Assembly: GCF_001186125.1 (NCBI RefSeq)
Contig: NW_014040557.1
Location: forward strand, 265,488-305,664
From: Sphaeroforma arctica JP610
Taxonomy: Eukaryota
Reading direction: 5' to 3'
Length of the DNA: 40,177 nucleotides
A program made the position numbers and the translations under genes. Positions 1-40,177 of this stretch are shown piece after piece (position 1 is the stretch's first letter; every line of letters starts with the position of its first letter). Below the pieces are notes generated by a model, which made no database searches, had not been told where the DNA came from, and was given only the letters and a program-made list of their open reading frames with translations.

Positions 1-175
1 AAGTGGATTTGTGCTTGCCATTGAGTCAAGTTGTATTCCCAGGCAGCCTCCGAGGTAGTCCGCGAATGGTCGCGCGGGGAGCAGGCCGCAAAAGTGAAGT
101 AAGTTTGTTTGATGTTTGGGAAACCGAGGGTATTTAGTGCCCGTGATGATGGCTGCTGCTTGAATGAGTGCTGAG

Positions 176-1543: not shown

Positions 1544-1810
1544 TTGAGCATTGCTTTGGGCGGTCAGACGTGGGCGGAACGAGTGGTTTGGCAGCCGCTG
1601 AACCCAAGGTCTGTTTAAGTCATAATAGAACCCTCCAAAGATTTGTGGGTTAGTGGCATAGCGCCAGATGCGGTCGAAGATTCGTAGCAGCCCTTCCGCT
1701 GGTCCATGTAAAGTGACATACGACCGTAGTAGGTTCTGATGCGCCCGGATTTCGGCTTGGAATAATCGCGCGCGGGATTTGTTGCGTAGGTGATACAGTC
1801 GATGGCGATA

Positions 1811-2554: not shown

Positions 2555-2559
2555 TGGGC

Positions 2560-3496: not shown

Positions 3497-3514
3497 TTTC
3501 CACTAACGTTTATT

Positions 3515-3949
3515 TGTAATCTTAGATCGACTCAAAACACAATGTAACGGTGAACTTGGATTTATTTCCTCGATTGTTGAATACAGAAGGATTTCATTGA
3601 GAATCCGGCCGCCAATCAAATCGTGTATCTTGTCAATTTCGAGCCTACAAGTCCATTCAACATATATCGTCATCTGCCAACCTCCAGCTCATATTACCCC
3701 GCACTTCGGTTCGCAAAACACCAATCATACACCAACCTCCTCTTCTTTCGAGCCTGCGCGGCCGTTCGCCAACAAACCGCACAATACAACTTAGAACTTT
3801 TCAAACTTATTAGTTTTCACACTTATCAGTTATCGCCCACACTTAGAAGTTCTCGCACTCTTATTAACGCCCAGGAACATTACCGAACAGTTCGGTACTT
3901 ACAACACCAACATTGTTTTAAATCGAAGGTAATCATGGTTGTCATTACA
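3515..3949 (-). repeat. LTR copy A (435 bp, TGTAAT...ATTACA termini)
   Basis: Reverse complement of 14787-15218 with 8 substitutions and one 3-bp indel. It has 6-bp terminal inverted repeats, and copy B follows a PPT and an integrase. Confidence 0.92.
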
Positions 3950-3952
3950 TTT

Positions 3953-6897: not shown

Positions 6898-8030
6898 TCA
6901 TAATATATCCATGATGTCTTCCTCCGCAACGGAGGTTGCAAGATCGGCTGCCTCTATATACGCATCAATCAACTCTTCACTTGCTTTTGGTAAATCCATC
7001 CACCATTCTGTAATTGGTGGATCTAGATTAACATACCCGCGTGCACATTGTGCTTCATGATCGGCTAAATCTACCTCGGATAAAGTTTTGTTCTTACCAC
7101 TATGTCCCTTGTATACAATTACGAAGTTCTTCCATCGTTCTTTCGATGTTGGTGCGTTCTTTTGCTATGTCCCGGTCGTACTCAGCACGTTCATGGCTAA
7201 ATGCGAATTGATTCGCTTGTCGTTTTCGGGGAGTGCAGACTAATACTCCTAATCTCTCTAATTCGTACCTATCGGTGAGGCCTTTATCATACATGTATAA
7301 CATTTTGTACTGCCATTGCCCTTGATTATTTTTGGTCCGTATAATTCGTTATTGTCGATTCCGTTGTCAGATACCTGACCAGGATAACTTTTAGTAATAT
7401 CGCATGGGTAGGTTCCTCCATTGCTGAAAACGGTATATTTTAAAGTGGGATAATTTTTGTACTCACTATAGAATACACTTTGTGCATCTATATTGCATCC
7501 GGGGCGTTTCGCTCGCAACTCTACGGCGTCACCAATAACAATCCTCACTCCAGGTTGTAAATGTATTGCAGATCGCGTTCGTTCGGGCGTAAATTCTGCG
7601 GATTGCTCCGCAGTTGGAAAAGGTTGTCTAGCCTGAAATATTCTACTTATAGCTATACATAGCGTTATATATATACGTTTGACTGTATCATCTGTAAAAC
7701 CAAAGTACACTCCTAAAGCGCTGAGATTGTTGCGCGACTTTCTGAATGCTAATATGTACCTAACATACATATGCCATGTGGATAGTGCACTTTTGCGACC
7801 TCTCGGATCTCGAAAGCGGTCTTCTTCTTCGCTATCAACTTCTTCTGCCAATCCACCTTCGGCACTATTATTCTCATCTTCTAGTTATTCTTCTAGTAGT
7901 TTAGCGCGACATTCATTCCTCAATTTGTGGGACCAAAATACTATTTCATCCAACCTATTATTGTAGTTGAGCCAATCAAACTGCGACCTCAAAACGGTGA
8001 GATTAGGTTCACCTGTTTGCTCTAGTGGAC
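6898..8030 (-). pseudogene. ISL2EU-type transposase core (HTH + DDE_Tnp_4)
   Basis: QTGEPN...IVFW, GRKSALS...FGFTDDTVKRIY (HTH), IGDAVEL, QSVFYSEYKNYPTLKY, YPGQVSD, MYDKG, IAKERTNIER and C-terminal VNLDPPI, ending at TGA 6898-6900. It carries frameshifts and one in-frame stop. Confidence 0.88.
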
Positions 8031-8348: not shown

Positions 8349-9400
8349 CTACGACCATTCTTTCGATAGGCCAAAAACCCATTGACCAGTAGACATATCG
8401 ATGTTGGGTAGTAAAATTTGCCCCTGGACAGCATCCTTGTTATAATTAAAGGCACCTTGAAGGGTACCAACACTGAACAAGGGGTTAGTTGCCATAAGAT
8501 CTTTGATTTTGTCTCCGGGAACTCCCTTCGGCCATGAACCCCGCTTTTTTGCTATGAACATTACTTATAACCCGAATGTTAATAGCATATATAGTACCTT
8601 AAGAACTGAGAATCCAGAGTCCATGATAACCTTACGATCCGTACCTCGTATACCATCGGTTAGTCTCATTACGATACTTACAGTTGACAGTTGATCTGTA
8701 TACTTCAAGGCAGGTAGATACTCTGGCCTCACTTTCGCCTCGCACAAGTCAACATGGAATATTATATTTGCTGCACAACATACAATTGTCTTCCACTCGT
8801 TCTCGCACTGCTTAGGCTTACGAGGACAGTGAATTTGCGCATAGTCTTTAGGATTGTCCCACGCCATCATGGTTTCGTCGATGCACACTTTTTCAGAACA
8901 GAAAAAGTGTTTGTCCATATTGCTATTCCATTCATGTACTAAGCTACGCATAAAATAACCCTGGTCTGCTCTCTCTTCCGGTGTAATGGGTGCTGCACGC
9001 AAGCATAAATTTTTTTGTATGTCTATGTATCTTGTTTTGTTCATGTACAAACCAAAATAGGGAAGGGGGTCTAGTGGGTCACGAGATGAGATCCAGAAGC
9101 CGTTTACACCCCTACTGTAATATTTAGCCATGATCAATCTCAATGCTAACCATACAAAGTACTCTCCAACATCTATCTCACGCTTACCTGCCTTTCTTAA
9201 GGCAACATTAGTCGCAGGCACAAGCTCACTACGCACCCATGTCATTGGTAGAAGGTACTTAAATAAATCTAAATATGATGCGTCGTCTTTGATATGTGGC
9301 AACTTTGCGCTAAAGTTTCCAGCACCGTGTCTTGTTCTAAAAGATCATCTCCAGCCTTATAATTGTCGTCTGAAGGTCTAGTGTCTATATCTACCTCCCT
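8349..9400 (-). mobile_element. piggyBac-family transposase fragment (DDE_Tnp_1_7), nested
   Basis: LFKYLLP...ATN, FW...FGLYMNKTRY, CIDETM, PRKPK, IMDSGFS, KKRGSWPKGVPG. The third catalytic Asp and the termini were not identified. Confidence 0.85.
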
Positions 9401-10266: not shown

Positions 10267-11630
10267 TCAGTGTCTTAAGCATATATGAAGGGTGAGCATT
10301 AAAGCTCGGGATAAATGCTGTAGACGGATAAGTTTTAACTTCCGTTCCTTCAGACGATGGAAACATGCTATCTTTTTCAGCTTGTGACTTATGCAGGCGT
10401 TTACGCCATTTCGATTAAAGACTTTTAAATAGTCTTGATTATCAAAAGCATTTGAAGTCAACTCAGCCATTGTACCGTCTATAAAGCGTGTACGAAAGTA
10501 TGTATAGCCTCCCTTATCCGTTCTCCATATAATGTCTTTAAATTCAGAACGATCAAGAGGGGCATTAGAATCATGTCTTCTTGCGAGTGTAATCTTTGTA
10601 GTCGGAATACGACTTGTGCCTATATTAAGCGCACTAGAACCATTGGGGTTATTTACCTCGTACGTTCCACTTTTAGTGTCTGCTACAGAGATTATATATA
10701 GACCTACTCATTTAGATGTTAATACAGTAGCATCGGAATTACGTTGACAGATGTTAACTCTGTCACCAACCTGATACTCTGCTGTCTTCTTGGCAGTGTT
10801 CGAACGCTTGTGCCTTTTTAATAAGGCTATATTGCGAATTTCTTGCAAGCAAGGATATACAACGTTATTAATTCGTTGTACCTTCTCCAACCATGGTAAC
10901 TCATGATGATCCGGTTTGTCCTTGTTAAAGGGGATTTGTATCACTATATCTGCCACGAAAATAGTGAGCGGGTGTAGTTCCTGTAACCGGATCAGCACAC
11001 TCGTTCATTTGTGTTTGTACCCACTTAAGTCATGCGTTAATGCAGTATGCAAAAAGTACTTAAGTCTTCCATGGCGCGTTTCATTCGCGCCTTGCGTTTG
11101 CGGCTTATATGGCACACCTCTCTTTTGGCATATGCCTGATACGAGTACTAGCGATTCCATTACGTCATCGCAGAACTCACTATCGTTATCAGTGCACACA
11201 ATACCCGGCCATCCGTGGTCAGCAAAGACTTGTCAATATAATTCTGCCACGGTCTGCGTGATTGCTTAGGCTTAGTGTATGGAGTGAAATTACGTTTTAT
11301 CAATGTACACGTGTTTGCGATGTGCATCACGACAAACAAGATCAATACGTGTGTCAAGAAAGCCTTCAGGAACTGCAGCACGCATGAAATAGCACTAATT
11401 AAGAATATAGCAATCACGTTTCGTACCTCCAGCACAAGGAATCAACTCTTGGCCACACACTGTTCCGAAGAATCATCCATCTTTTTGGTCGGATGTATTG
11501 AGATAAGCAAAAACTGATGTCGGGTGGGAAAACTTGACTCTACAAAGCCCTACTGTGCATATTGAATAGTCTTTACTTGTACGCGACATCTCTACGAGTG
11601 TAATGAGCTATCGTATGTATTTGTACGACC
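10267..11630 (-). mobile_element. Gypsy integrase fragment, paralogous to the integrase at 33944-35230
   Basis: IHTIAH, HGWPGIVCTDND, RGVPYKPQTQGANETR (identical to ORF 34535-34792), NVVYPCL, YQVGD and GYTYFRTRFIDGT. Segment 11280-11570 appears unrelated. Confidence 0.85.
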
Positions 11631-14779: not shown

Positions 14780-14786
14780 GGGGAGA
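14780..14786 (+). other. Polypurine tract
   Basis: GGGGAGA immediately precedes the LTR TG at 14787. Confidence 0.7.
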
Positions 14787-15218
14787 TGTAATGACAACCA
14801 TGATTACCTCCGATTTAAAACAATATTGGTGTTATAAGTACCGAACTGTTCGGTAATGTTCCTGGTTAATATGAGTGCGAGAACTTCTAAGTGTAGGCGA
14901 TAACTGATAAGTGTGAAAACTAATAAGTTTGAAAAGTTCTAAGTTGTATTGTGCGGTTTGTTGGCGAACGGCCGCGCAGGCTCGAAAGAAGAGGAGGCTG
15001 GTGTATGATTGGTGCTTTGCGAACCGAAGTGCGGGGTAATATGAGCTGGAGGTTGGCAGATGACGATATATGTTGAATGGACTTGTAGGCTCGAAATTGA
15101 CAAGATACACGATTTGATTGGCGGCCGGATTCTCAATGAAATCCTTCTGTATTCAACAATCGAGGAAATAAATCTAAGTTCACCGTTACATTGTGTTTTG
15201 AGTCGATCTAAGATTACA
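14787..15218 (+). repeat. LTR copy B (3' LTR, 432 bp)
   Basis: TGTAAT...ATTACA, downstream of the integrase and PPT; near-identical to the reverse complement of 3515-3949. Confidence 0.93.
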
Positions 15219-16175
15219 TATGTACTATTTTATTTGTACTTTGAGCTAATACATATGTACATATAGAATANNNNNNNNNNNNNNNNNNNNNNNNNNNNNN
15301 NNNNNNNNNNNNNNNNNNNNNNNNNNNNNNNNNNNNNNNNNNNNNNNNNNNNNNNNNNNNNNNNNNNNNNNNNNNNNNNNNNNNNNNNNNNNNNNNNNNN
15401 NNNNNNNNNNNNNNNNNNNNNNNNNNNNNNNNNNNNNNNNNNNNNNNNNNNNNNNNNNNNNNNNNNNNNNNNNNNNNNNNNNNNNNNNNNNNNNNNNNNN
15501 NNNNNNNNNNNNNNNNNNNNNNNNNNNNNNNNNNNNNNNNNNNNNNNNNNNNNNNNNNNNNNNNNNNNNNNNNNNNNNNNNNNNNNNNNNNNNNNNNNNN
15601 NNNNNNNNNNNNNNNNNNNNNNNNNNNNNNNNNNNNNNNNNNNNNNNNNNNNNNNNNNNNNNNNNNNNNNNNNNNNNNNNNNNNNNNNNNNNNNNNNNNN
15701 NNNNNNNNNNNNNNNNNNNNNNNNNNNNNNNNNNNNNNNNNNNNNNNNNNNNNNNNNNNNNNNNNNNNNNNNNNNNNNNNNNNNNNNNNNNNNNNNNNNN
15801 NNNNNNNNNNNNNNNNNNNNNNNNNNNNNNNNNNNNNNNNNNNNNNNNNNNNNNNNNNNNNNNNNNNNNNNNNNNNNNNNNNNNNNNNNNNNNNNNNNNN
15901 NNNNNNNNNNNNNNNNNNNNNNNNNNNNNNNNNNNNNNNNNNNNNNNNNNNNNNNNNNNNNNNNNNNNNNNNNNNNNNNNNNNNNNNNNNNNNNNNNNNN
16001 NNNNNNNNNNNNNNNNNNNNNNNNNNNNNNNNNNNNNNNNNNNNNNNNNNNNNNNNNNNNNNNNNNNNNNNNNNNNNNNNNNNNNNNNNNNNNNNNNNNN
16101 NNNNNNNNNNNNNNNNNNNNNNNNNNNNNNNNNNNNNNNNNNNNNNNNNNNNNNNNNNNNNNNNNNNNNNNNNNN

Positions 16176-20910: not shown

Positions 20911-23900
20911 ATGGCCAGCGAGAAATCAGCCGGGTTTGGCACGACCCCTTCTCACAGCCGAGTGGGCATGAGTTCAACGGATCGCATCGCTAGACTTCGC
21001 CCGGGGGTGTTGGAGAAGCCCTTTCCGTTACAGAAAAAAATGCCATCGCATTTGAGTACTGAGCGAATACAGAAGAAGACGCCATCGTATTTGCGTACTA
21101 AGAGTCTGCTTGCTACAATACAAAAGAAGACGCCATCGCATTTTAGTGCTGATGGAATACAGAAGACGACAGCATCGCATTTTAGTACTGAGAGTCAGCA
21201 TGGTACAATAAAGAAGACGACAGCATCGCATTTTAGTACTGAGAGTCAGCATGGTACAATAAAGAAGACGACGCCATCGCATTTGAGTACTGAGAGTCAG
21301 CATGGTCTAATACAGAAGAAGACGCCATCGCATTTAAGTGCCCTGAGCCAGCAGGCTACAATACAGAAGAAGACGCCATCGCATTTGAGTACTGAGAGTC
21401 GGTATGGTACAATACAGAAGAAGACGCCAACGCATTTAAATACTCTGAGCCATCAGGCTGCAATACAGAAGAAAACGCCATCGCATTTGAGTACTGGGAG
21501 TCAGCATGCTACAATACAGATGGAGAAGTCATCTACTGAGAAAATACGGAAGAAGACGCCATCGCATTTGAGTACTGGGAGTCAGCATGCTACAATACAG
21601 ATGAAGAAGTCATCTACTGAGAAAATACGGAAGAAGACGCCATCGCATTTAAGTACCCTGAGCCAGCAGGCTACAATACAGAAGAAGACGCCATCGCATT
21701 TGAGTACTGAGAGTCAGCATGCTACAATACAGATGGATAGGTCATCTACTGAGAAAATACGGAAGAAGACGACATCGCATTTGAGTACTCGGAGTCAACA
21801 TGCTACAATACAGATGGAGAAGTCATCTACTGAGAAAATACGGAAGAAGACGCCATCGCATTTAAGTACCCTGAACCAGCAGGCTACAATACAGAAGAAG
21901 ACGCCATCGCATTTGAGTACTGAGAGTCGGTATGGTACAATACATAAGAAGACGCCATCGTATTTAAGTACTCTGAGCCAGCAGGCTACAATACAGAAGG
22001 TGATGCCATCGCATGTAAGTACCCAGCGCCAGCAGGCTACAGAACTGATTCCCACCTTGTCACAGCCGTTGAAGAAGCGATACGTCAAGGTCACAGGCAC
22101 GGACAAGCAGAGAGAGACTACCGACACACACTACCAAACACCACTGAAGCCATTAACCGGATCCACGGCAGCAGTGAACACCACAACGAATGCTCCCATC
22201 ATGAGTACTTCTCTGCCACCCCCAACAAAGCCAACACGCACAGCCATTGAAGGCAAGCAGCCTGGAGATGTAAACGAGGCATACGACCGACAGACGCGAG
22301 TAGCAGAACGCGTTGCAGTACCGACGGAGGCTATAGATGTGGATGCCCTGGAAGAGGATGGGGAGAAAGGGCCGCATGTAGGTGGACCTACGCTGTGTAA
22401 GAGGGCTGGCCACACAAAAACAAAAGCAGAGCGTGCTGTGGCGAGGACGATCACAATTGACCTGACAGGCGAGGACAAGACAAGATCGAGCTCTGCGTCT
22501 CGCATTAGAGATTACGGTAGTACAATAGCTAGCTGTGCGGTTGGGGCCGGTGTGTTACCTCAGGTGTCTGTTGCACCTGCTAGGAATGTAGCCGGGAATA
22601 CCAAACGCGTGATCGGATTTGGTGTGGCCCTGAAGAGGCCCTTTGTCGAGGGTGGGCATGTCGGTGCAGATGGGAAGCAAGTGACCGGGATGGGTAAGCG
22701 TATAGAGAAGCCGGCCACATACATGGGTAGCCCTACGCGCAAGGATCCCCAGAGAGTTGTGCCGAAGGATGAGAAAAAGGGTTTGCCTGTAGGTCTCCCA
22801 GACAACGGCGAGCGCAATCAGCAATCCGCACAGACCAATCGCAGCACACCACGCGACAAAGCAACCGCTGCAAATTCAATTGCAAAGCGAGTGCACGTGG
22901 AGCATCAGGGGGCGTCCAAGATCGATCTGTTGGCGGTTCCCTGGGTGCAAAAGGTCCTTGCTGAGCCCACATACCTACCTGGGGACGGGGACGGGGACGA
23001 GACTTATCTAACACACGCGCCATCGATTTACGACAAGGTCGAATCGCACGCGGGTCGGTGGCTGGTGTGGCTGCCGGAGAGGGTGTATAAGGATTCGCCT
23101 GAAGAGAACTGGACATTCCGGCCCAAATGGGTCTTTCACCCGAGCGCCTATCCGAGACGCGAGCCCTTTGGAGACCTTGGCGTGCCGGATTATACACTCC
23201 TGCCAAGCAGGGTGCGGGGACTGAGACGCACACTACCTGCCACGAGTGAAGTATATTGGTCGATACAAGAGCGCGTACAAGGTGAAAGTGCAGATGAGTG
23301 TGACGGGTGTCATCCGGGTGCGCCGTACTTGACCCATGGCGTGCACTTTGAGCATACGCAAGGCAAGGATGGGTTCTTCTCGGCGCCGCTGATAAAGAAC
23401 CAGCACGTGATCCCCCGACGCCAGAGACACGGCTACGCACACCGAGACAACTTTCTACTGCCAGATAGAGTGGAGGAGCTTGCGAGCCAATGCACCGGTG
23501 CAGCCGATCGACAGTTAAACACACAGACACTCCGCACAAAAGGTACTGGAGTGAATGCAGATATGTATTCAAGCATACAGACAAATCGTGCAGAAAGTCC
23601 TGGAATGAGCCGCGATACGACCCGAGAGCCCCGTGCGACAGGTGCAGGTCGAACTGTAGACGCCAGTAAGGAGGGCGGGGAAACTGTGCATTCCATACGC
23701 AAGAGTGGGAAGTCAGAAAAGAGACTAATATCAAGGTGGATTGGTAGTCGACGAAAGAAACGTAAAGCCAGCACCATAAAGCGGGACTTGAATGAGTATG
23801 ACTCCGGACCAGAGAATGCCTTGAGCGATCCCAGTGACCTTACAGATACTGATGAATCCAGTTACAGTAGCGAGGGGTGGTTGCCTAGGCTTTATGGTGG

Positions 23901-24220
23901 CGACGTGGATAGCAACGACGCGCCACGTAGCCTGCACAGAAAATGTATCAGTGCCCACTCGGCCACACAGGGAAGGGCAGTCTTTCGGAAGGAATCTGTG
24001 CGCAAAGCAAAACGTCTGTGCACATGGGAGCACTCTGTGGGGAAGGTCAAAGATAGTAACCTAGATTCTTTGGACAAATCCGACACCTCTGATAAATCCG
24101 CCACATCTGAGAAGACAGAGACATCTGAAAAAACAGACACATCGGATATGGCCATCGAGTTTGATCAGTTACTACCCATACAGTCGCTTATCACGGACAC
24201 CCCTGCAGGAGAGATGCCAG
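20911..24220 (+). CDS. Large exon of an uncharacterised repeat-rich, mostly disordered protein
   Basis: Uninterrupted 3.3-kb ORF with codon-multiple internal repeats, ending at a CAG|GTACGT donor (24221). It is preceded by catactacatag, so 20911 may be an exon start rather than the initiator. Confidence 0.75.
21028..22040 (+). repeat. Coding minisatellite: 18 units of (Q/R)KKTPSHLSTxSQxATI, 51-bp core with 39-bp and 81-bp variants
   Basis: The aagaagacgccatcgcattt core recurs, and all unit lengths preserve the frame. Confidence 0.95.
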
Positions 24221-24537
24221 GTACGTTTTATATTATCATGTATGTATATATGTATTATTAGTATACGTATGTCGTACATTCATAGGCAAACTGTGGGGTT
24301 TGTCGTATGTGTAATGTAGTATAAAAACATTGCTCTCGGTGCGTCCAATGGGCGTTCAACATGTCTAGTCTCCGCGATCCCAGTCCCAACTTGGGCGTAT
24401 ACTACTTCTACATGCAGAATTCTTTCTTGGATATACCGTGTGTATGGCCCGTGGAAGCGAGCACCCAGGGCAGGAATGTGCAAGTAACTAGTACTTTCAA
24501 AGCGACTCTTAACCTCACTCATGGTTCATCTCCACAG
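24221..24537 (+). other. Predicted 317-bp GT-AG intron (phase 1)
   Basis: Donor gtacgt, branch-like cttaac near 24508 and acceptor tccacag. Splicing joins G+AC (Asp) in frame with ORF 24591-26408. Confidence 0.65.
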
Positions 24538-26395
24538 ACACATACAACTCCACGTCCCCAAATACTAGGCAATGCGACCCGGCAGAGAATGTGTCAGGCG
24601 AGGCAATAGACTCTCTCAGTCTCTCCCCAATAAGCGGCCTGAGCACATCCGATGATCCTTCGTCATCGCACTCGTGCAGTTCTCGGTGCACTGAGTCGTG
24701 TACGTGCGCCCGCTCATGCACTAGCTGCACATGTTCCGAGTGTGCAAGCCATGACCCATCGCCAGGCACAGCGGTGTGCACAGATTCGAACGAATCCCAC
24801 ACGGCCGTTGCGTGTAGAGAGAAGAACATGGAGGATGGTAACGGACAGGGGCAGACGGGAGTACAGTCACGCACAGCGGAGTCTGAGCTATACACACAGC
24901 CGCTTGGGACAGACCCGCCAGTCGAGACAACCCCAACTCTACCGGAAACACACTCGCCGGTGGTTGGGGTGCAAACAACCTCTCAAGAAACACATACGGG
25001 AGATACACCTGAAACACTTGATGAGCCAACGACATACAAAGCACTACATGAGACACTCGTGCCAAGATCGCCACACACGCCATCCAGGTCAGAAACTGAG
25101 CAACTGCCACCCCTCCTCAGCCCCAAAAGTAGTACAGTGGTGCAGCGCATGACCCGGAGTCCATCACGCACGTGGTGCGCGGGACAGACTGGTGAAGGTG
25201 GCCCAGAAAAGGCCTTGTGCAAACAGATCAAAGACCTGCAGACGATAGACACGTCGTCGTGTAGCTCGGGGTCATCCAGGTCGGTGTGTGTTGCGGATTT
25301 GATATCCTCTCCGCGTGCTATTGAAGATGGGATCCCAGATACAGAGGGAGCTACACCGTTTATGGGTAAGAATAAGCGGCAACATGGAAGCACGGAGGAG
25401 GCTGTCGGGGCGATTGAGGGTATACAGTCAGGCGAAAATGTGACGACAGAAGAGAGGCCTGTCACACCACTGGAAACGACTTTGGACCAAATATTACATT
25501 ACATCGCTACTTCATCATCCCTATCTAGTCTGCTTACTTTGGACCAAATATTACATTCCATCGCTACTTCATCGTCCCTATCTAGTCTGCTTCCCGACAT
25601 ATCTGCGCCGTGCAGTGCAACAGAATCCGCTAAAGTCCCTGTGCAAAACAGCGCCCCTGTGCAGAACAGCGCCGCTGTACAGAATAATGCCCCTGTGCAA
25701 AACAGCGCCCGTGTACAGAACAGTACCGCCACCATCGATGATGTACCGTGCACTGAAGTGGCTGCCATGAACACCGATCCATGCGCGCAAAACACAGCGT
25801 ACGCACAGGCGACACCCGGAATTCTATCTGCACCGCTGTTGGAAGGGGCCGATAGTCTGTACACTTCGAGCCCTGTTTGGTTTGATGTGAACTATTTGAC
25901 TGCTGTTGATTTGTGCAGCCAGCCCCTTAATATTCACGCAGACACCTCTGTCGCAAATCCCAGTGAGACTGTGCCAACGTTAGTTACGCCCTTGACTGAT
26001 GATTTGTGGGAGGGGACGCAGCTCCCCTCCAATGTACCCACTTCGATTGCGACAACACCTGTGAAGGCTCCACGTTCGAGTGAAGTGTGTAATACTGACA
26101 TGAAAACAACAGGTGATGACACAGGTGATAACACAGGTGAAATGGTACGCAAGGAAGATGCACGTATGAATAAAGTGTGTGATACTGACATGAAGACAAC
26201 AGATGATGACACGGGTGAAATGGTACGCAAGGAAGATGCACGTACGAATGAAGTGTGTGATACTGACATGAAGACAACAGATGATGACACGGGTGAAATG
26301 GTACGCAAGGAAGATGCACGTACAAATGAAGTGTGTGATACAAACATGAAGACGACAAGCGATGACGCGGGTGTCGGTTGGTACGCAAGGAAGAT
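24538..26395 (+). CDS. Next exon of the same protein (Ser/Thr/Pro/acidic, with a Cys cluster and repeats); runs into the gap
   Basis: About 620 open codons in frame with the predicted splice. The apparent stop at 26408 falls in noisy contig-end sequence. Confidence 0.7.
25479..25592 (+). repeat. 57-bp tandem duplication (TLDQILHxIATSSSLSSLL x2)
   Basis: Directly visible and frame-preserving. It is followed by five 18-bp VQNxAx units at about 25641-25730. Confidence 0.9.
26081..26394 (+). repeat. 78-bp coding tandem repeat (EVCDTDMKTTDDDTGEMVRKEDARTN), 4 units, probably continuing into the gap
   Basis: Units start at about 26081, 26171, 26249 and 26327. Confidence 0.93.
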
Positions 26396-27331
26396 TGTCC
26401 CCGGTTAACGGGAAAACGTTTACGGGTAAAACGGGTTTACCGGTTTACGGGGTAGGGGTAACGTTTAAACCCTTACGGAACCAACTTAACGGTANNNNNN
26501 NNNNNNNNNNNNNNNNNNNNNNNNNNNNNNNNNNNNNNNNNNNNNNNNNNNNNNNNNNNNNNNNNNNNNNNNNNNNNNNNNNNNNNNNNNNNNNNNNNNN
26601 NNNNNNNNNNNNNNNNNNNNNNNNNNNNNNNNNNNNNNNNNNNNNNNNNNNNNNNNNNNNNNNNNNNNNNNNNNNNNNNNNNNNNNNNNNNNNNNNNNNN
26701 NNNNNNNNNNNNNNNNNNNNNNNNNNNNNNNNNNNNNNNNNNNNNNNNNNNNNNNNNNNNNNNNNNNNNNNNNNNNNNNNNNNNNNNNNNNNNNNNNNNN
26801 NNNNNNNNNNNNNNNNNNNNNNNNNNNNNNNNNNNNNNNNNNNNNNNNNNNNNNNNNNNNNNNNNNNNNNNNNNNNNNNNNNNNNNNNNNNNNNNNNNNN
26901 NNNNNNNNNNNNNNNNNNNNNNNNNNNNNNNNNNNNNNNNNNNNNNNNNNNNNNNNNNNNNNNNNNNNNNNNNNNNNNNNNNNNNNNNNNNNNNNNNNNN
27001 NNNNNNNNNNNNNNNNNNNNNNNNNNNNNNNNNNNNNNNNNNNNNNNNNNNNNNNNNNNNNNNNNNNNNNNNNNNNNNNNNNNNNNNNNNNNNNNNNNNN
27101 NNNNNNNNNNNNNNNNNNNNNNNNNNNNNNNNNNNNNNNNNNNNNNNNNNNNNNNNNNNNNNNNNNNNNNNNNNNNNNNNNNNNNNNNNNNNNNNNNNNN
27201 NNNNNNNNNNNNNNNNNNNNNNNNNNNNNNNNNNNNNNNNNNNNNNNNNNNNNNNNNNNNNNNNNNNNNNNNNNNNNNNNNNNNNNNNNNNNNNNNNNNN
27301 NNNNNNNNNNNNNNNNNNNNNNNNNNNNNNN

Positions 27332-32222: not shown

Positions 32223-32270
<48 letters not shown>
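31940..32270. repeat. (TG)n then (TA)n microsatellite block
   Basis: Directly visible; it abuts the truncated LTR. Confidence 0.96.
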
Positions 32271-32277
<7 letters not shown>

Positions 32278-33736
32278 TTCGATTGATATTTCTATGTTTT
32301 GAACTGTGTTATATAAACATTTAAGTCATTTAGGATTTAGCAGTGGTAGCTTGTGTAAGAATGAATGGGACTGCCTCTTGGTAAGAGCCTTAATATCCTC
32401 GATCACACAGGACGTACCTCTAGCTGTTCTTTATTGAATAATTTTCACTAGAAGTACTAAGTGTCCATGACCAGATGTCTAATTCGTAGATAGACATAAG
32501 AACGTAAGTCAAGTTAATACATTAGCTAATATAAATAAAGTTTCATCTGAAGAAAAGTTAAAAAAAGAGAAAGACATTGGATTTTGGAGATTGGCGGGAA
32601 GGCCAAAACCTGTATGTAGTAGTTCAGAGATTATAGAATTTAGTTTATAATATCCTATAAAAATAGCGGGTTCCTAATAGTAGTTGCACAGTTAACGTAT
32701 ATTATAAACGTATTGGCGTTCATACTTATAATACCCGAATACGTTTAACGAATTGGACATGAACAAGAACTGAGATATTCAAGATTCTGAACATGTGATA
32801 GTACTCAGTAGAGTATGGGACTCTACTGTGGACAATTAGGTAGTTTTCCAAATATAGATTGGTATTTCCACTGAAATTAGAATTGTACATAGTATAGGAA
32901 CGACATCAATCTAACACCTGAAAATGACACTTTGGGAATCTCTAACAGGGGTACCATGCAGATGGTCTCAGGCATGAAATGGTTGTTGGTACAAACCTAT
33001 GGCATAATTCGATACTCCACTGAGAAAAAGACAGGATCAGAGTTGTTAGAATTTAGGACAACATGGTTTTGGTTCCTCCTAGCCAGCCAACTAGATGTGC
33101 CCGTCTATGCCTTAAATGGGATGGAGAGCTAGGTACCAAGTGATGTGGTTTAGGTGCAGATGTATACTGCACCGACTTTGTGTTTTGATTTTCTTTTTAA
33201 TTTTCTTAAGTTGGACTTAGAGATATTTTATGAGTTAGTTTGATTAGGTAATTGTTTCGAGGCGTGAAATGTAAATTATGCGTCCAATGAAATGATATCT
33301 AGTCTTAGTAACTAAAACATAGATAAATCTAGAACGAAGTAGTTAGTGATTACAGCGGAGCATATAGACAATAGTCTCAGTCTAAAATCCCCTAATCTTT
33401 TACTCGTTACCAAGGGCTGAAGCTAAACTTATTTAACATTTTGCATTTAAACGTTTTCACGTATTGTTTTATTAACGTAAACGTCTTGGTATCGTATAGT
33501 CAGCCTAGATGAGACCGACTTTTACAATCCTACATCTACTATCGTCTCAAATAGGTCCAAGTAAACGAGTCATACCAAATACTCAGGCTATTGAAGCCAT
33601 CAAAGTGAATTTAGAACACTTTGGAAATATTGGAGAAAAAAACTTGTATTAAATTTTTTTAAATACAAATAAAAACAATTTTTGTTATCTCATTCGATCT
33701 TGATATTTTAGACTAACCGGAGGCCGTATTTCTACA
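32270..33736 (-). repeat. 3' LTR (about 1.47 kb visible; distal end lost at the TA microsatellite)
   Basis: 32270-32657 and 33527-33651 align with 39680-40177. On the minus strand it begins TGTAG at 33736, immediately after GGGGGCTA. Confidence 0.85.
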
Positions 33737-33744
33737 TAGCCCCC
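33737..33744 (-). other. Polypurine-tract-like GGGGGCTA
   Basis: Immediately 5' of the TG that opens the 3' LTR on the minus strand. Confidence 0.55.
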
Positions 33745-33943
33745 AGTAGCTTTTAGTACTACGGACGTACGTGAAGGTACGATCTAGTTCGTAAAGCGAA
33801 AACCAAAGTAAAACGGTTTCGGTCATAGCTTATCGAGTAAGTATGTGCCTATATGTACGAGTTCAAGGCTCATGTTGTACTCTATTAAGCAGATAAGAAA
33901 GTATAGTAACATAGGAAGTAGGTGGCAAATAGGGAATTTCATA

Positions 33944-35230
33944 TCAATCCGGGTTTGTATTCACCTGAGGAAACCCTTTCCGTTTATCTCGTGTGTTCTT
34001 ATGTAAACACTTATTCCATTTCTTATTAAAGATACGAAGGAAGTCGCGAGATTCACGAAACGCGTCGGAGGTTAGCTAAGCTACTGTCCCATCCATAAAA
34101 CGGGTCTTGTAGTAAGTGTAACCGTTTTACTTGTGACTTCATAACTGGGACATCGGAGTCAAATGAGCAAGCAAATGAGAGTTCGGAGGTAGGGATACGG
34201 TGAGTGCCTAGATTAGTTGCGCTAGTACCATCTATGTTATTCACTTCGTAAGTATCACTCTTCTCATCATGGTAGGAAATAACAAAAAGGTACAATTGTC
34301 TTAGAAGAGAGTTCGGTAACGTTGGCATTGCGATTTATAATATTATCATAATCGCCAACTTTGAACTGAACAATGTTCTTAGTGTTATTCCATCGGTCAT
34401 ACGCTTTAAGTGGGACACGATTTTTGTGCTCGAGTAAACAGGGGTAAACAACATTCTGCATATGCTCGATCTTTTGTAGCCACGGAGAAACGTGTTTCTC
34501 GGGCGCAGTTTTGACAAACGTTGCTTGTAATTCACTATAGCGGCCAAAGAAATAGTGAAACGGGAGTGTTCCAGTTTGGAGGATTCATGCAGTTATTCAT
34601 CTGAGTCTGAACCCCTTTCAAATGATAAGGCCACATATCCTCAACGTCATCTAGTGCGGTACGCAATAGCTTCTTCAGTTCTCTTTGACGTGTCTCATTT
34701 GCACCCTGCGTTTGAGGTTTATAAGGAACACCACGCCTATGGTTCATGCCTGATACGAGTATAAGTGCCTCCATTACGTCGGTACGAAACACACTACCGT
34801 TATCAGAACATAGTACTCGGGGGAAACCGAAGTCATTGAAGACGTGATAGCATAACTATGCCACTGTTTGCAGGCGTTTGCTCGGTATTGCATAAAACAA
34901 GTTATAGCCCAAAGCCACACATAAAAAATGTCAGAAATATACATCGCCAGTATGCTTGGATCGCGGGAGTTTAACCAAATCGACTATGACTCGGCGCATC
35001 GGTTGGTCTTCTGTCACATTTTTTAGGAATGCCCAACCGTAGTGCTTGATCTGGTTCTTTTCACAATCAGTACAGCGTCGGTATACTTCACGTATGGTTT
35101 CTTTCAGCGCCGGGTGATCAAGCCCCTGCACGAATAGCCACCTTATAAGTATGCTCATATGCTCGATGAGTTAAAATATGTATTATTTTAACTCTACTCT
35201 CGAGCTCTTCTAAGTTAGTCAGACTATGTG
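33944..35230 (-). pseudogene. DDE (rve) integrase with HHCC finger and a chromo-like C-terminal tail
   Basis: HILTH...CTDCEK, VIVDLVKL, GFPRVLCSDNG, PYKPQTQGANETR, FKVGD and GYTYYKTRFMDGT, with many frameshifts. Confidence 0.9.
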
Positions 35231-35378
35231 TAACGCTGGCTGGATGAACCATAGTCCCGTTAGATAGGGNNNNNNNNNNNNNNNNNNNNGTCTTGAGCTT
35301 TTGTTCAAACTCCTTAGACTCCTCTAGTTTAGCTAAGAACTCGGTTAAGGGTTTCCATTTAGTGGTACCTGCAGGACC

Positions 35379-35777
35379 GATGTGACAAATGATGGTGTGT
35401 TTCCAAGGTGTCTTCTTAATAGAATAGGATCCCTGATACAAGAACGTGTCGGTTTCACGGTCGACATAGATAGGCTCGTCGTGTATCATATCAATTAAAT
35501 CACATATCCATGGGTCGGAGCTACGCAAGGGACACCAAAGCGTAATGGTAGATTTAGTAATATTAACATAATTTAACAACTGTGTGATAAGTTGCCAAGG
35601 TGGGTTAGCCCACGCCTTATACTTTGATAGGTCAAGCTGAAAGGCACCACCTTTGGGATGAGTCAACGACCTATAATCAGAAACCTGTTTGTTCTGTTCT
35701 GCGGCGAACATATCAATAGTAAATGGACCCCATCTTGATTGAGCGAGGTTAAAACATTTCTTATTAAGCATCCAATC
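35379..35777 (-). CDS. DIRS/phage-Dam-like DNA N6-adenine methyltransferase domain, in frame with RNase H
   Basis: DWMLN...F...RWGPFTIDMFA...N...Y...AF...WANPPWQLITQLL...TLWCP...PW. IDMFA is at 35703-35717 and NPPW at 35595-35606. Confidence 0.88.
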
Positions 35778-35822
35778 GGTTGCTAATAACTCTTTAACTG
35801 TATTCTGGTAGTCAGGGACAGG

Positions 35823-36176
35823 TCGAGAGAGCATGTCAAGATGATTATGTATTCCTGGTATGTGTGTAATGTTAAAAGCGAACTTAGCAATAATGTCATG
35901 CCAGCGACTCACCAACTGTGAATCAGGGTTCATGTCCTTCATATATGTTAAAGACTTTTGATCACAGGCGACAGTGAAGTAGCTTCCATAAAGGTAGTCT
36001 TTAAACTGTCTTAGCGCAGTAACTATAGCAAGGAGCTGTTGTTTAACGGTAGGGTAATTCCGTTGACTCTTATTATAACTCTTGCTAAAGAATTGTATGT
36101 AGCGCGGTTTACCATTTATCGTTTGGTAAAGCACTCCACCTACCGCTCGATCTGAAGCATTGGTCGCTACTTGGAA
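35823..36176 (-). pseudogene. Ty3/Gypsy RNase H
   Basis: TNAS (from TDAS), AVGGVLYQ, FFSK, QRNY, LLAIVTAL, F..YLYG..F, CDQKSL, RW, ITHIPG, DMLSR. Several catalytic acidic residues are mutated. Confidence 0.92.
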
Positions 36177-36194
36177 TGGGACGCCATCCACAGG

Positions 36195-37066
36195 CTATTG
36201 CATGATGGGCGCGTCCATTACTTTACTTTTGACTAGCTTAAATGCATCATCACATTCCTTAGTCCAAAGCTTTCCCAAAGGTCCTTTATGCAGCCTTAGT
36301 TGACTGAAAGGTTTTAAGCAATGAGAAAGATGAGGTACCAATTCCGAGAAGAAGTTAACAAACCCACACACAGTATTCACATCTCTTCCAGTAATCGGTG
36401 TTGATAAATCCAACAGAAATTGTTTCTTGCCAGGATCAATTTCAACCCCTGCTGCAGATACCTTGTAACCAAGTAAGTGTATGGTATCTTTAGCAAAAGA
36501 ACACTTGTCCTCGTTAATCTTAAGTTTGGCATGGTTTAGTCGCTTTAAGACTTCCTTAACGAGTTTAGCATGTTCATGTGCTGTCTCTGTAAAGATAACC
36601 ATATCATCTAAATATACTGATACGTTATCCGACAGGTCCGCAAATAGTTCCATCATAACTTGTTGGAAGAAAGAAGGTAACATGTGTAAGCCTTCAGGTG
36701 TACCTTTAAACTGGTACTTTTTACCTTGCCAAGTATAGGGAACGTATTTCCTATGCGGCTCATATATTTGTAATTGATAGAATAACCCTGAAAAACCGCT
36801 AAGAGAGCTAAGTCAACTAGAATTGCATCACAATTGATTTCAATTCGACCCTGTTTTAACCAATCTTCAATTAGGGTTTTGACAACGTCTTTGTGTCTCC
36901 AAGTCACGTAGTTATGTGAAGGACACTTTAACTTAGAGAAGTCGACGTTTGTTAAGTCAAGCTTAACATACCCGTTAAAGAACTTAAACATACACCAGTC
37001 GGTTATTGCAATCTTTCTGTTTTGTATAATTAAGTCCATAATTATATCGGTAAAGTGCGGAATCAT
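36195..37066 (-). pseudogene. Ty3/Gypsy reverse transcriptase
   Basis: WQGKKYQFKGTPEGL (alternative frame), PSFFQQVM, VYLDDMVIF, LKINEDKC, LLGYKVS, GFVNFF. An internal part of the N-terminal RT appears deleted. Confidence 0.92.
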
Positions 37067-37076
37067 ATCCTTTACT

Positions 37077-37502
37077 TCACCTTCCGGAGGTTTTATCTGA
37101 CTGATATTTATTTGGGTCTAGCCCATTAGGCAGAACAGTGAGAGTTATACCTAAACTGAGAAGATCAGTCATACCTATAATTAAATCGTATTTCTGAGAC
37201 ATGTCAGTAACGATGAGGTGAGTCTTTACTTCTCTTCTATCTGACAACATTATGTGTGCATAGTCAATGGCTTCTTCGCAAGTGGTAACTTTGCCATTTC
37301 CCAAGATTAAATTAGTTGTTTCGTTATGGATAGCCATATCTGCGTAGGCTACTCGGCGCGAGATAGCAGAGACTTCAGCCCCTGGATCTAAAAGTGCTAC
37401 AACTTTTTCTCCATTTACATAAACGGTTTGAAATATACGTTCATCTCCTTTGGTATAGATTTTATTGAACTTTTTCTCATAATCTTGCTCTAGTGCACAC
37501 AT
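37077..37502 (-). pseudogene. Retropepsin aspartic protease
   Basis: VNGEKVVALLDPGAEVSAIS...LGNG...YDLIIGMTDL. Confidence 0.88.
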
Positions 37503-37559
37503 ATGGAACTGTCAGTTCTTAACTTGGACGTCCGGTATGTCCTTGCAATTATCTTTGTG

Positions 37560-39107
37560 TCAACCGTTAGTACCCTTGCAAGTAGTACACTCTTTCCTAT
37601 AGTGTCCAAAGTTTGGCTTGCCTAGTGCACACTTCACAGAGTCGTGTTTACCATTCCACTTGCCATCACGTTTAGTGAGGTTATAACCACACTTCTTGCA
37701 AGGTGCTCTCTCCTTCCTTTCACCCTTTAGTTCAGTAGAAGTAGAGCCTTTACCACTTCCAGCAGTAGTGTGAGGTTTCTTAGTATTACGCGCAGTGTTA
37801 TTCTCTATCGCGGTACGCTTAGCGGGCTGGGTAAAGCTCGAGGTACTGAGCACTCTAATAGATAGGTTGGTATGCTTTTGAACTATCTTCTCAAAGACAG
37901 ACCAAGGCATAGATCGCAAATCACCATAGGCGATAATATCATCATTGACTACCTAGCAGCTTTATAAAGCTTGGTTCGAAGCATTCACGAGGCTCAGTGC
38001 TACGGGCTGCTAGTGTCAAGATGGAGTTTATCTCCTTTCTCTTGTTATCGATTAGATAGCGAATGTTATCCGCATTCTTATCGTCAAGGCCAGAGTCATT
38101 CAATAGACGGTCCTCAAGGACTTACATACCCGAACGTAATAGCCTGAGACGATGTTGTCTGGTTCTCACTTCCTCGTCTTCAGAGCTAGAGTTGGTACTC
38201 ACTAGTGAGGTACTGGTAGAACGATTTCCAAAGTCGTGATTACCAGGGTTAGATGGTAAATGAGGATCGATGTTATGAGGGTGGTAAGCCTCATCGATTT
38301 CCATACGATCATAGCCTCTGACACGGTTAGATTTGTCGAGAGGATGGTCGATTGTAGCTTCCGAGCTATAGAGATTAAATCTTGAGGTTTTACCCATTCC
38401 ACCAGCGGTAACTGGCTCAGCGGTTACCCTGCTGGCTGGTAAACCGGTAGGTCCCAGATTTGAAACCCGGCTCGGATTATTTTTTTCTTCGGTATAGGGA
38501 GAATATCGGCCACGTGGGATATGATCGAAGGGTCAGAAGCTGCGGCAGCGGCTAGCTCCTTTAAAAGCTCATCTTTGCGGTTCAAATGGCGTCGAGATTG
38601 AGAAGATCCAGCCACTCGTTGTTGAGTTGTGGCGTCCCCAACATTTGCGTCTTCCGCCCCAACATTCAGTGGTGAGGCATTCAATGAAATTTCACGAAAT
38701 GGAACGCCACCATCTTTGTTAATAGGTGGATTGGGCGGACTTTTAGTAGTAATAAACCTTCGATCTCGAGACGATTCCTTCACTTGTTCAGGAGATATAG
38801 CCTTTCCAATGTCTGACTTTTCGCGGTCAGTTGGCGAGCTGAGGCCCCGTGCTGCACTACTAGGAGACACACGGACGCTGGCGAGCATTTCCTCGGCAGT
38901 TGAGACCTCCACTTCCAAGGCTTTAGGGTCTGACGAGTCATCCTTAGAGATTTCTTCAGAACTAAGCTCAGAAACGGCTTCCTCTACAGCTTCAACGGCA
39001 GGCTCAGTACCAGACGGACCAGCGTCCCCAGTAACCTCAAGAACCTCAACAGGCTTACCAGGCTTAGAGCTGGCGGCTCCCTTGCCTTTAGAATTTCCTT
39101 TAGCTAT
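37560..39107 (-). pseudogene. gag region, fragmented, with a C-terminal Cys/His knuckle
   Basis: ORF 38424-38918 extends in frame to ATA at 39107 (probably a mutated ATG, MAKGNSKGKG). CKKC-x14-H-x4-C precedes the protease. Confidence 0.65.
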
Positions 39108-39126
39108 AGTAATAGCTCAAGAATAG

Positions 39127-39875
39127 GAAAATTAATAAAGTCTAGGAATAGTAACTAGCGTGTAGCTAACTTTAGGGTAGTATTAGCCACTATGAGGTAG
39201 TATAGAATACTTACAGTCCTTTCGCTGGATAGTAAGCAATTGTTAGACAGTCTAGAAGCAGTACACTACGGTAACTACTAAATAATTGAAATTATATAGA
39301 CTTCGATGGATATTTCGATGTTTTAATCTATATTATATAAACTAAGATACAATTTAAGACAGTTAGGATTTAGCAGTGGTAGCTTGTGTAAGAATGATCG
39401 GGACTACCTCTTGGTAAGAGCCCTAATATCCTCGATCACACTGGACGTACCTCTAGCTATTCTTTATTGAATAATTCTCACTAGAAGTACCAAGTGTTCA
39501 TGACCACATGCGAAAATGAATAAAGTCTAGGAATAGTAACTAGCGTGTAGCTAACTTTAGGGTAGTATTAGCCACTATGAGGTAGTATAGAATACTTACA
39601 GTCCTTTCGCTGGATAGTAAGCAATTGTTAGACAGTCTAGAAGCAGTACACTACGGTAACTACTAAATAATTGAAAATATATAGACTTCGATGGATATTT
39701 CGATGTTTTAATCTATGTTATATAAACTAAGATACAATTTAAGACAGTTAGGATTTAGCAGTGGTAGCTTGTGTAAGAATGATCGGGACTACCTCTTGGT
39801 AAGAGCCTTAATATCCTCGATCACACTGGACGTACCTCTAGCTATTCTTTATTGAATAATTCTCACTAGAAGTAC
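39127..39875. repeat. 385-bp tandem duplication overlapping the inner end of the 5' LTR
   Basis: 39127-39490 is near-identical to 39512-39875. Confidence 0.95.
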
Positions 39876-40177
39876 AAACCCTGTAGATAGATATAAGAAC
39901 GTAAGTCAAGTTAATACATTGGCTAATATAAATAAAGTTCCATCTGAAGAAAAGTTAGAAAAAGAAAAAGACATATTGGATTTTGGAGATTGGCGGGAAG
40001 ACCAAAACCTGTCTGTAGTAGTTCAGAGATTATTAAATTCAGTTTATAATATCCTACATCTACTATCGTCTCAAATAGATCCAAGTAAATGAGTCATACC
40101 AAATACTCAGGCTATTGGAGCCATCAAAGTGAATTTCGAACACTTTCGAAATATTGGAGAAAAAAAAACTTGTATTA
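39161..40177 (-). repeat. 5' LTR (rearranged; cut by the window edge)
   Basis: Matches the 32270-33651 LTR. The inner boundary is inferred from TGTAG at 39161, which mirrors CTACA at 33732-33736. Confidence 0.75.

What the first reader, a model, noticed from the sequence alone, without database searches (positions are those of the whole stretch)
32270..40177. Ty3/Gypsy LTR retrotransposon with a Dam-like adenine methyltransferase between RNase H and DDE integrase
Seen in sequence: one minus-strand frame (35118-36191) runs from a Gypsy-type RNase H directly into a domain with IDMFA (SAM-binding motif) and WANPPW (amino-methyltransferase catalytic motif), then towards the integrase HH residues. 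It is flanked by a retropepsin, a YLDD RT, a DDE integrase, a PPT and long direct LTRs. Established knowledge: this RH-MT arrangement is characteristic of DIRS1-type elements, which lack a protease and integrate by tyrosine recombinase; standard Gypsy pol is PR-RT-RH-INT with no methylase. Inference: a Gypsy lineage acquired (or shares with DIRS) a 6mA/4mC methylase that could mark its cDNA or new insertions, for protection from host defence or to establish an active chromatin state. The MT motifs are intact although neighbouring domains are decayed.
Basis: partly seen in the sequence, partly recalled or inferred. Interest (0 to 1): 0.92.

Follow-up and report, generated by a model that had tools for sequence, protein, structure and literature searches.

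The report
Broken methylase-carrying Gypsy retrotransposon, already described
This is a broken copy of a Gypsy-type jumping gene, likely from the marine protist Sphaeroforma arctica, whose enzyme chain really does carry an adenine-methyltransferase-like domain between RNase H and integrase, a design that a May 2026 preprint already described in this very lineage and whose enzyme activity is still unproven.

Summary
The architecture is real but already in print. Window 35379-35789(-) encodes a Dam-family (PF05869) domain right behind RNase H. An intact 1400-aa relative, 85% identical over the RH-MT stretch, carries protease-RT-RH-MT-integrase in one frame, so the layout is not a mis-join; the 20-N gap hides about 88 codons. 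RT-RH is not inside DIRS, and RT-RH, MT and integrase trees all group it with Abeoforma elements. The closest named hit is a Sphaeroforma arctica protein (94%). That matches the 'Ichthyosporean DAM-LTR lineage' of bioRxiv 10.64898/2026.05.21.726589, which also ran the proposed dam-minus E. coli assay, with a negative result. Two corrections. In this copy the MT is no better kept than its neighbours (80% vs 86-94%). The catalytic motif is lost in relatives: CPPW in the intact copy, NPPC dominant in three runs. The predicted fold is closest to the RNA cap methyltransferase PCIF1/CAPAM. The scan noted DAM-LTRs before on other DNA.

The parts
39882..40177 (-). 5' LTR, cut by the window end (about 85 nt missing); ends TCTACA
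   Evidence: 94-96% identical to the two halves of the 3' LTR
39127..39878 (-). 5' leader, tandemly duplicated (385-nt period, 98.6% identical), with a PBS-like TGG site at about 39506 at the junction
   Evidence: the priming tRNA was not identified
37560..39116 (-). gag-like region broken into several frames, with two Cys/His clusters near its end (inferred gag)
   Evidence: position and ORFs; no Pfam hit below E 0.04; Cys/His pattern
37095..37502 (-). aspartic protease (LLDPGA)
   Evidence: Asp_protease_2 E 1.4e-7; 82% to P0003 1-137
36447..37093 (-). reverse transcriptase (YLDD), with frameshifts and about 55 codons missing (P0003 247-301); stop before RNase H
   Evidence: RVT_1 E 1.9e-21; tblastn
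35820..36185 (-). Gypsy-type RNase H; two acidic positions read N and Q in this copy (ATNAS, KQQL) where P0003 has D and E
   Evidence: RT_RNaseH E 2.3e-28; alignment
35379..35789 (-). Dam-like / PCIF1-like amino-methyltransferase domain (DMFA 35714-35703; NPPW 35606-35595)
   Evidence: PF05869 E 1.6e-6; domain limits; predicted fold and matches
35270..35289 (.). 20-N placeholder gap hiding about 88 codons of MT-integrase linker
   Evidence: P0003 residues 799-887; loose contig ends on both sides match the linker
33890..35269 (-). integrase: HHCC zinc finger, D-D-E core, C-terminal part without chromodomain; broken by frameshifts and stops
   Evidence: 86-93% to P0003 935-1354; rve E 5.9e-9 and no Chromo hit in P0003; integrase tree
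33737..33757 (-). weak polypurine tract (G5 run)
32485..33736 (-). 3' LTR (begins TGTAGA), interrupted by an unrelated insert of about 870 nt at 33526-32658; the exact end is 32485 or 32476
   Evidence: contig joints at 33736/33737
32268..32484 (-). second PBS-like site and leader after the 3' LTR: start of a truncated tandem copy, ending in an (AT)n run
   Evidence: 90-92% to the 5' leader

Best explanation
This is a dead copy of an ichthyosporean DAM-LTR, a Ty3/Gypsy retrotransposon whose Pol polyprotein reads protease-RT-RNase H-methyltransferase-linker-integrase, and whose methyltransferase domain likely rides into the virus-like particle and would methylate adenines on the element's own replication intermediates. 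Shown here: the domain order, the in-frame fusion in an intact relative, Gypsy placement of RT-RH and integrase, DIRS kinship of the MT, long-term conservation of the MT across families, and inactivation of this copy. Predicted: a compact SAM-dependent amino-methyltransferase fold with no separate DNA target-recognition domain. Inferred, untested: packaging with Pol (standard Ty3/Gypsy biology, from my own knowledge); action on single-stranded cDNA or RNA:DNA hybrid while tethered near RT/RNase H; seeding of 6mA that host AMT1 then maintains so that new insertions stay transcribed (the preprint's model). I put the classification at about 0.95 and the cDNA-methylation step at about 0.4.
For: Intact single ORFs with the same order: P0003 (1400 aa, 85% over the whole RH-MT query) and P0004 (1376 aa, 67%). 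22 of 291 proteins examined have RT-RH-MT-INT, redundant cluster members included. Best solved-structure match of P0003 is Ty3 Gag-Pol, E 6e-63. RT-RH tree: DIRS-like rows are one side at 100; window plus 11 DAM-LTRs form a group at 94. Integrase tree: same group at 97. MT tree: 19 rows at 96, among them three Abeoforma whisleri proteins. Closest named hit S. arctica SARC_08637, 94% over 22% of the query. MT is as conserved as RT between P0003 and P0004 (68% vs 62%; linker 31%). Run-specific changes in the MT are 5 nonsynonymous to 7 synonymous, rough dN/dS 0.19, p 0.005. NPP[WF] is kept in 22 of 26 integrase-linked MT rows (one row is a duplicate and one is Copia-type). The preprint reports more 6mA and more expression at DAM-LTRs than at other LTRs in S. 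arctica and A. whisleri.
Against: No activity has been shown: eukaryotic DAMs from DIRS and DAM-LTRs did not raise 6mA in dam-minus E. coli. The closest intact relative P0003 has CPPW. In runs X1, X7 and X16 (organism A) 83%, 91% and 95% of summed contig depth at 35595 reads NPPC, against under 0.1% in X4 (organism B); that depth is no copy number. The nearest fold is an RNA cap methyltransferase. Iyer et al. judged DIRS MT copies likely inactive. The 6mA enrichment is correlative and was scored at ApT, the host AMT1 context. Where DIRS attaches to the Gypsy tree is not resolved by my data (p-AU 0.41 and 0.49), so the direction of transfer is not shown here.
Confidence: 0.85

Rival explanations
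1. The domain is kept as a non-catalytic binder of nucleic acid or SAM, or as a structural module of Pol; methyl transfer is dispensable for retrotransposition.
For: The open 1400-aa ORF P0003 has CPPW. NPPC dominates contig depth in 3 of 4 runs laid. 4 of 26 integrase-linked and 8 of 48 DIRS-like rows lack NPP[WF]. The E. coli assay was negative. Iyer et al. proposed inactivity for DIRS MTs. Earlier AI notes report motif loss with domain retention in Rozella (not checked by me).
Against: NPP[WF] and D-x-F-A are kept in most rows across very distant families, which is hard to explain without catalysis at some stage. NPPW is near-universal in run X4.
Confidence: 0.3
2. The domain is a PCIF1/CAPAM-like RNA methyltransferase that marks the element's own transcript (cap-adjacent or internal adenosine) and so changes its stability, translation or packaging.
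For: All 5 Foldseek hits at E<=0.001 are human or zebrafish cap-specific adenosine methyltransferase. VIA-align top hit is 6irx, Z 9.6, rmsd 3.5 over 140 residues, the only one of 48161 chains at Z>=8; T4 Dam Z 7.3 and E. coli Dam Z 7.1. Two DIRS-like relatives hit Pfam PCIF1_WW weakly. Iyer et al. place DIRS MTs in the PCIF1 clade. The word PCIF1 does not occur in the preprint's main text.
Against: Identity to PCIF1 is only 13-16%; a shared fold shows no substrate. The domain is about 140 residues against 470-490 for the PCIF1 chains, so it lacks their other domains. By sequence it scores with the DNA family PF05869 and phrog_111. 6mA enrichment on DAM-LTR DNA is not directly predicted by this model.
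Confidence: 0.2
3. History rival: the RT-RH-MT block was not captured by a Gypsy element from DIRS but inherited from an ancestor shared with DIRS, with many later losses in Gypsy.
For: The MT sits in the same place behind RNase H as in DIRS. Trees with DIRS as sister to the window family or to the core DAM-LTR group are not rejected (p-AU 0.41, 0.49), and the RT-only tree joined them at 92.
Against: DIRS is a long branch and the only outgroup. RT-RH and integrase trees both put the core group with the same MT-less Gypsy elements (91 and 98). RH is Gypsy-type by a wide margin. The preprint, with far larger sampling, infers at least four captures.
Confidence: 0.1
4. Assembly chimera: a DIRS RH-MT joined to another element's integrase across the 20-N gap.
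For: The gap lies exactly between MT and integrase and its size is wrong. No contig shown spans the whole stretch.
Against: P0003 spans the gap in one ORF and matches both sides at 80-93%; P0004 has the same order; nesting in DIRS is rejected. The two sides may come from different copies of the family, but not from different families.
Confidence: 0.02

Closest known systems
Ichthyosporean DAM-LTR lineage (Fernandez-Moreno et al., bioRxiv 10.64898/2026.05.21.726589; whole main text read, figures and supplements not seen)
   Same: Ty3/Gypsy organisation, PF05869-type DAM domain in Pol, no chromodomain, found in Sphaeroforma arctica, Abeoforma whisleri and Pirum gemmata; my nearest named relatives are S. 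arctica and A. whisleri proteins.
   Different: Nothing in architecture. This copy is dead. The main text does not mention motif IV loss within Sphaeroforma-type families or the PCIF1 fold kinship. Whether this exact family is in their supplement I could not see.
DIRS1-like tyrosine-recombinase retrotransposons (Piednoel et al. 2011, PMC3266345; passages read)
   Same: RT-RH-MT order; homologous MT, 48 of 48 DIRS-like proteins hit.
   Different: Here there is a protease, a DDE integrase and direct LTRs; RT and RH are Gypsy-type and outside DIRS. DIRS have a tyrosine recombinase and inverted terminal repeats.
Canonical Ty3/Gypsy (Metaviridae) such as yeast Ty3
   Same: PR-RT-RH-INT order; best solved match Ty3 Gag-Pol, E 6e-63; direct LTRs starting TG.
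   Different: An extra MT domain of about 140 residues and a long linker between RH and INT; none of 113 ordinary Gypsy proteins examined was assigned an MT domain.
PCIF1/CAPAM cap-specific adenosine methyltransferase (PDB 6irw, 6irx); clade kinship with DIRS MT stated by Iyer et al. 2016 (PMC4738411; passages read)
   Same: Closest solved fold by two aligners.
   Different: 13-16% identity; only the methyltransferase core is shared; substrate of the retrotransposon domain unknown.

Membership tests
DAM-LTR retrotransposon (ichthyosporean lineage) | PF05869 DAM domain in Pol at E < 1e-5 | tested here: met
   E 1.6e-6 for the window frame; P0004 7.4e-6; P0003 7.6e-5 falls just short
DAM-LTR retrotransposon (ichthyosporean lineage) | RT in Ty3/Gypsy, not DIRS | tested here: met
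   'DIRS-like' rows were labelled by architecture only, and the root position is unresolved
DAM-LTR retrotransposon (ichthyosporean lineage) | DAM groups with ichthyosporean DAM-LTR domains | tested here: met
   19-row group at SH-aLRT 96 with three A. whisleri proteins; 42% to P0015
DAM-LTR retrotransposon (ichthyosporean lineage) | No chromodomain | tested here: met
   no Chromo hit in P0003 or P0004 at E<=0.05, while P0005 gives 3e-15
DAM-LTR retrotransposon (ichthyosporean lineage) | Host is an ichthyosporean | tested here: inconclusive
   inferred from a 94% hit to an S. arctica family copy; no genome is held for the window
DAM-LTR retrotransposon (ichthyosporean lineage) | Raised 6mA and expression of insertions | not testable with these tools
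   needs nanopore modification calls; only contigs were laid
Ty3/Gypsy LTR retrotransposon | PR-RT-RH-INT order with DDE integrase | tested here: met
Ty3/Gypsy LTR retrotransposon | Direct LTRs with TG...CA ends, PBS and PPT | tested here: met
   94-96% direct repeats, TGTAGA start and TCTACA end, PBS-like TGG site, weak PPT
Ty3/Gypsy LTR retrotransposon | Target-site duplication | not testable with these tools
   the 5' end lies outside the window and the 3' LTR is followed by a second leader
DIRS1-like retrotransposon | RT inside the DIRS clade | tested here: not met
   two placements rejected, p-AU 2e-121 and 6e-92
DIRS1-like retrotransposon | Inverted terminal repeats, no protease or DDE integrase | tested here: not met
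   direct LTRs, protease and integrase present
DIRS1-like retrotransposon | Tyrosine recombinase ORF | tested here: inconclusive
   no such hit among the 9 element ORFs scanned; not every decayed frame was scanned
Active N6-adenine methyltransferase | SAM-binding motif, NPP[YFW] motif and Rossmann-type fold | tested here: met
   window copy; not met in P0003 (CPPW)
Active N6-adenine methyltransferase | Methyl transfer to adenine | not testable with these tools
   the published heterologous test was negative

The most novel reading that the evidence does not exclude
The 'Dam' of DAM-LTRs is not a DNA methylase at all but a PCIF1/CAPAM-like module that acts on, or only binds, the element's own RNA or RNA:DNA hybrid. 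Sphaeroforma-type families would then give a natural experiment: sister subfamilies with NPPW, NPPC and CPPW have all amplified, so existing nanopore 6mA data could separate 'the domain writes the mark' from 'the host writes it'.
Probability: 0.3. Interest if true: 0.55.

Novelty: already known. Interest (0 to 1): 0.17.

Why it matters
DAM-LTRs are a real and curious case of a retrotransposon carrying its own candidate epigenetic writer, but the class, this lineage and very likely this host were described in May 2026, so this decayed copy adds little. What is useful is narrower. Natural motif IV variants among close relatives, and the fold kinship to PCIF1, make the open question (does the domain methylate anything, and what?) directly testable with data that already exist.

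Tried and rejected
No whole genome is held, so copy number, gap-free DNA copies and a proper dN/dS could not be had. A metagenome-contig scan with the RH-MT frame found 33 pattern matches and no confirmed relative. The look-up of sequencing runs listed no holder on record as RNA: no evidence on expression either way; X16 is only guessed to be RNA. No listed contig spans the whole element. Contig depth over the MT bins was similar to RT and integrase bins (X4: 770-941 thousand against 708-1025 thousand), but the tool states this is no copy number, so I do not count it. The careful RT-only tree did not finish; the quick tree joined the long DIRS branch to the core DAM-LTRs at 92, and the RT-RH tree did not; AU tests left this open. 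All trees are quick IQ-TREE searches on subsets: 87 rows (42 of 110 Gypsy, 25 of 48 DIRS-like), 53 rows, 76 rows and 38 rows; 14 ids were set aside as redundant or fragmentary cluster members. P0101 was mislabelled DAMLTR; it is Copia-type. Two minor rows of the 24 variant rows (11% and 4%, both nonsynonymous) were left out of the N/S counts. PHROGs gave only a weak DNA methyltransferase hit (E 0.005). No tRNA gene is in the window to test the PBS. PMC11673190 (passages) was not relevant. Searches for earlier descriptions found the preprint as the only paper with this architecture among those listed. I did not use complex prediction, the second fold job or the ESM Atlas.

Full report
Observation. 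The minus-strand frame 35118-36194 carries a Gypsy-type RNase H (RT_RNaseH, E 2.3e-28) followed by a Pfam Dam domain (PF05869, aa 140-205, E 1.6e-6, 28.4 bits against a cut-off of 28.1). IDMFA is at 35717-35703 and WANPPW at 35612-35595. Upstream lie a retropepsin (E 1.4e-7) and a YLDD RT (E 1.9e-21). The MT match is not chance: the domain finds 789 proteins at E<=0.001 among 1.84 billion representatives, and folds at mean pLDDT 90 from a 65-row alignment.

The gap. P0003 (1400 aa, Logan assembly) is 85% identical over the whole RH-MT query and reads protease, RVT_1, RNase H, Dam, rve in one ORF. It aligns to both sides of the gap at 80-93%. About 88 residues (799-887) lie where the window has 20 N, so the gap is undersized and the window's frame continuity across it is luck, but the fusion is real. 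P0004 (1376 aa, 67%) has the same order. Of 291 proteins examined, 22 have RT-RH-MT-INT, redundant cluster members included; 113 are ordinary RT-RH-INT and 51 are RT-RH-MT without integrase.

State of this copy. It is dead. RT has frameshifts and lacks about 55 codons; a stop separates RT from RH; two RNase H acidic positions read N and Q; the integrase has stops and frameshifts. The LTR is about 380 nt. The 5' copy is cut by the window end, the 3' copy is split by an insert of about 870 nt, and the two are 94-96% identical over 296 aligned nt, K2P 0.04-0.06. The 5' leader is duplicated at a 385-nt period (98.6%). The PPT is weak.

Placement. The best solved match of P0003 is Ty3 Gag-Pol (E 6e-63). 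Against my labelled set, RT scores best 137 bits on Gypsy and 90.5 on DIRS-like proteins, RH 121 and 36.6, while the MT hits 48 of 48 DIRS-like proteins and only 2 of 113 Gypsy at noise level. In the RT-RH tree (53 rows) DIRS-like rows are one side at 100 and the window groups with 11 DAM-LTRs at 94. Forcing the window family inside DIRS is rejected at p-AU below 1e-90 in both placements tried. The integrase tree recovers the same group at 97 and the MT tree a 19-row group at 96. Limits: these are quick trees on subsets, DIRS-like is a label by architecture, and where the long DIRS branch attaches is open (p-AU 0.41 and 0.49), so my data do not show the direction of transfer. The closest named protein is Sphaeroforma arctica SARC_08637, 94% over the end of the MT, and three of the next-closest MT hits are Abeoforma whisleri proteins. 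The host is therefore likely S. arctica or a congener; no genome was held to confirm it.

What is known. The first literature search returned Fernandez-Moreno et al., bioRxiv 10.64898/2026.05.21.726589; I read the whole main text, not its figures or supplements. It defines DAM-LTRs, claims their first description, and names an ichthyosporean lineage in Pirum, Abeoforma and S. arctica with no chromodomain and conventional Ty3/Gypsy organisation. It reports more 6mA and more expression at DAM-LTRs than at other LTRs in S. arctica and A. whisleri, and no activity for the domains in dam-minus E. coli read by nanopore. Its model is methylation of reverse-transcription intermediates followed by host AMT1 maintenance. 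Piednoel et al. 2011 (passages) give the DIRS RT-RH-MT order with unknown MT function. Iyer et al. 2016 (passages) put DIRS MTs in the PCIF1 clade and judged them likely inactive. The scan's own earlier notes list DAM-LTRs in other genomes (unchecked AI notes, consulted after I had reached this reading).

Is the MT selected? Across families, yes: between P0003 and P0004 the MT is 68% identical, RT 62%, the linker 31%. In this copy, no: against P0003 the MT is 80%, RT 86%, RH 94%, integrase core 92%. Laying contigs of four runs on 35500-35800 gave 24 variant rows. Ten are private to the window (7 nonsynonymous, 3 synonymous; p 0.34 against neutral), twelve are run-specific (5 and 7; rough dN/dS 0.19, p 0.005), and two minor nonsynonymous rows were left out. 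The numbers are small and rest on contig depth. One run-specific change hits motif IV: NPPC makes up 83%, 91% and 95% of depth at 35595 in X1, X7 and X16, and under 0.1% in X4. The open ORF P0003 has CPPW. More widely NPP[WF] is kept in 22 of 26 integrase-linked and 40 of 48 DIRS-like rows. So the domain is maintained, usually with its catalytic motif, yet close relatives seem to have amplified without it.

Fold. All 5 Foldseek hits at E<=0.001 are PCIF1/CAPAM, the cap-specific adenosine methyltransferase. VIA-align agrees: 6irx at Z 9.6, rmsd 3.5 over 140 residues, the only chain of 48161 at Z>=8; T4 Dam Z 7.3, E. coli Dam Z 7.1. Identity is 13-16%, and a shared fold does not name a substrate. 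The preprint's main text does not mention PCIF1, but Iyer et al. made the link for DIRS.

Mechanism. I commit to this: the MT is made as part of Pol (shown), is likely packaged with it (inferred from Ty3/Gypsy biology), and would methylate adenines on single-stranded cDNA or RNA:DNA hybrid so that host AMT1 keeps new insertions in 6mA-marked, transcribed chromatin (inferred; about 0.4). A compact core without a DNA-recognition domain fits the failure on E. coli double-stranded DNA. Rivals are a non-catalytic binder (0.3) and an RNA methyltransferase (0.2).

Verdict. Real feature, already known class and lineage, dead copy. Interest 0.17. The useful remainder is the natural NPPW/NPPC/CPPW series, which could test catalysis in existing nanopore data.

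Noticed in passing
protein P0101 (1838 aa, unnamed source): A Ty1/Copia-type polyprotein (zf-CCHC, Pol_BBD, Dam 656-727 at E 7e-11, integrase region, RVT_2) with the Dam domain between protease and integrase and an NPPW motif. 'Copia' does not occur in the preprint's main text, and search listed no paper describing a Copia DAM-LTR; supplements not seen. It is a single protein and could be a chimera.
   Followed up: partly
proteins P0050 and P0059: Polyproteins ordered endonuclease/exonuclease/phosphatase, Dam, RT, RNase H, integrase, with a very long RT branch: a different DAM-LTR layout with an extra APE-like domain.
   Followed up: partly
window 10301-11262 (-): Decayed integrase of a sister DAM-LTR family, 51% to P0003, grouping with the window family at 100 in the integrase tree; no RT, RH or MT match was found beside it.
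   Followed up: partly
window 32658-33526: An insert of about 870 nt inside the 3' LTR with no match elsewhere in the window; it is covered by many contigs in all four runs, so probably another repeat.
   Followed up: no
window 3512-3950 and 14786-15221: Inverted repeats of about 440 nt, 96-98% complementary, 11 kb apart; possibly two oppositely oriented LTRs or the ends of a large DNA element.
   Followed up: no
window 1-3300 (-), 7258-7884 (-), 8565-9344 (-): A broken LINE-like element (RVT_1 E 1.8e-14, weak endonuclease hit), a DDE_Tnp_4 fragment and a DDE_Tnp_1_7 transposase fragment.
   Followed up: partly
window 20911-24261 (+) and 24513-26408 (+): Long low-complexity ORFs with 51/81-nt and 78-nt tandem repeats and no Pfam hit.
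   Followed up: no
proteins P0026, P0087, P0136 with P0005, P0178-P0180: DAM-bearing and DAM-less Gypsy elements form one group with the core DAM-LTRs in both RT-RH (91) and integrase (98) trees, which could mean one old gain with losses rather than several captures.
   Followed up: partly
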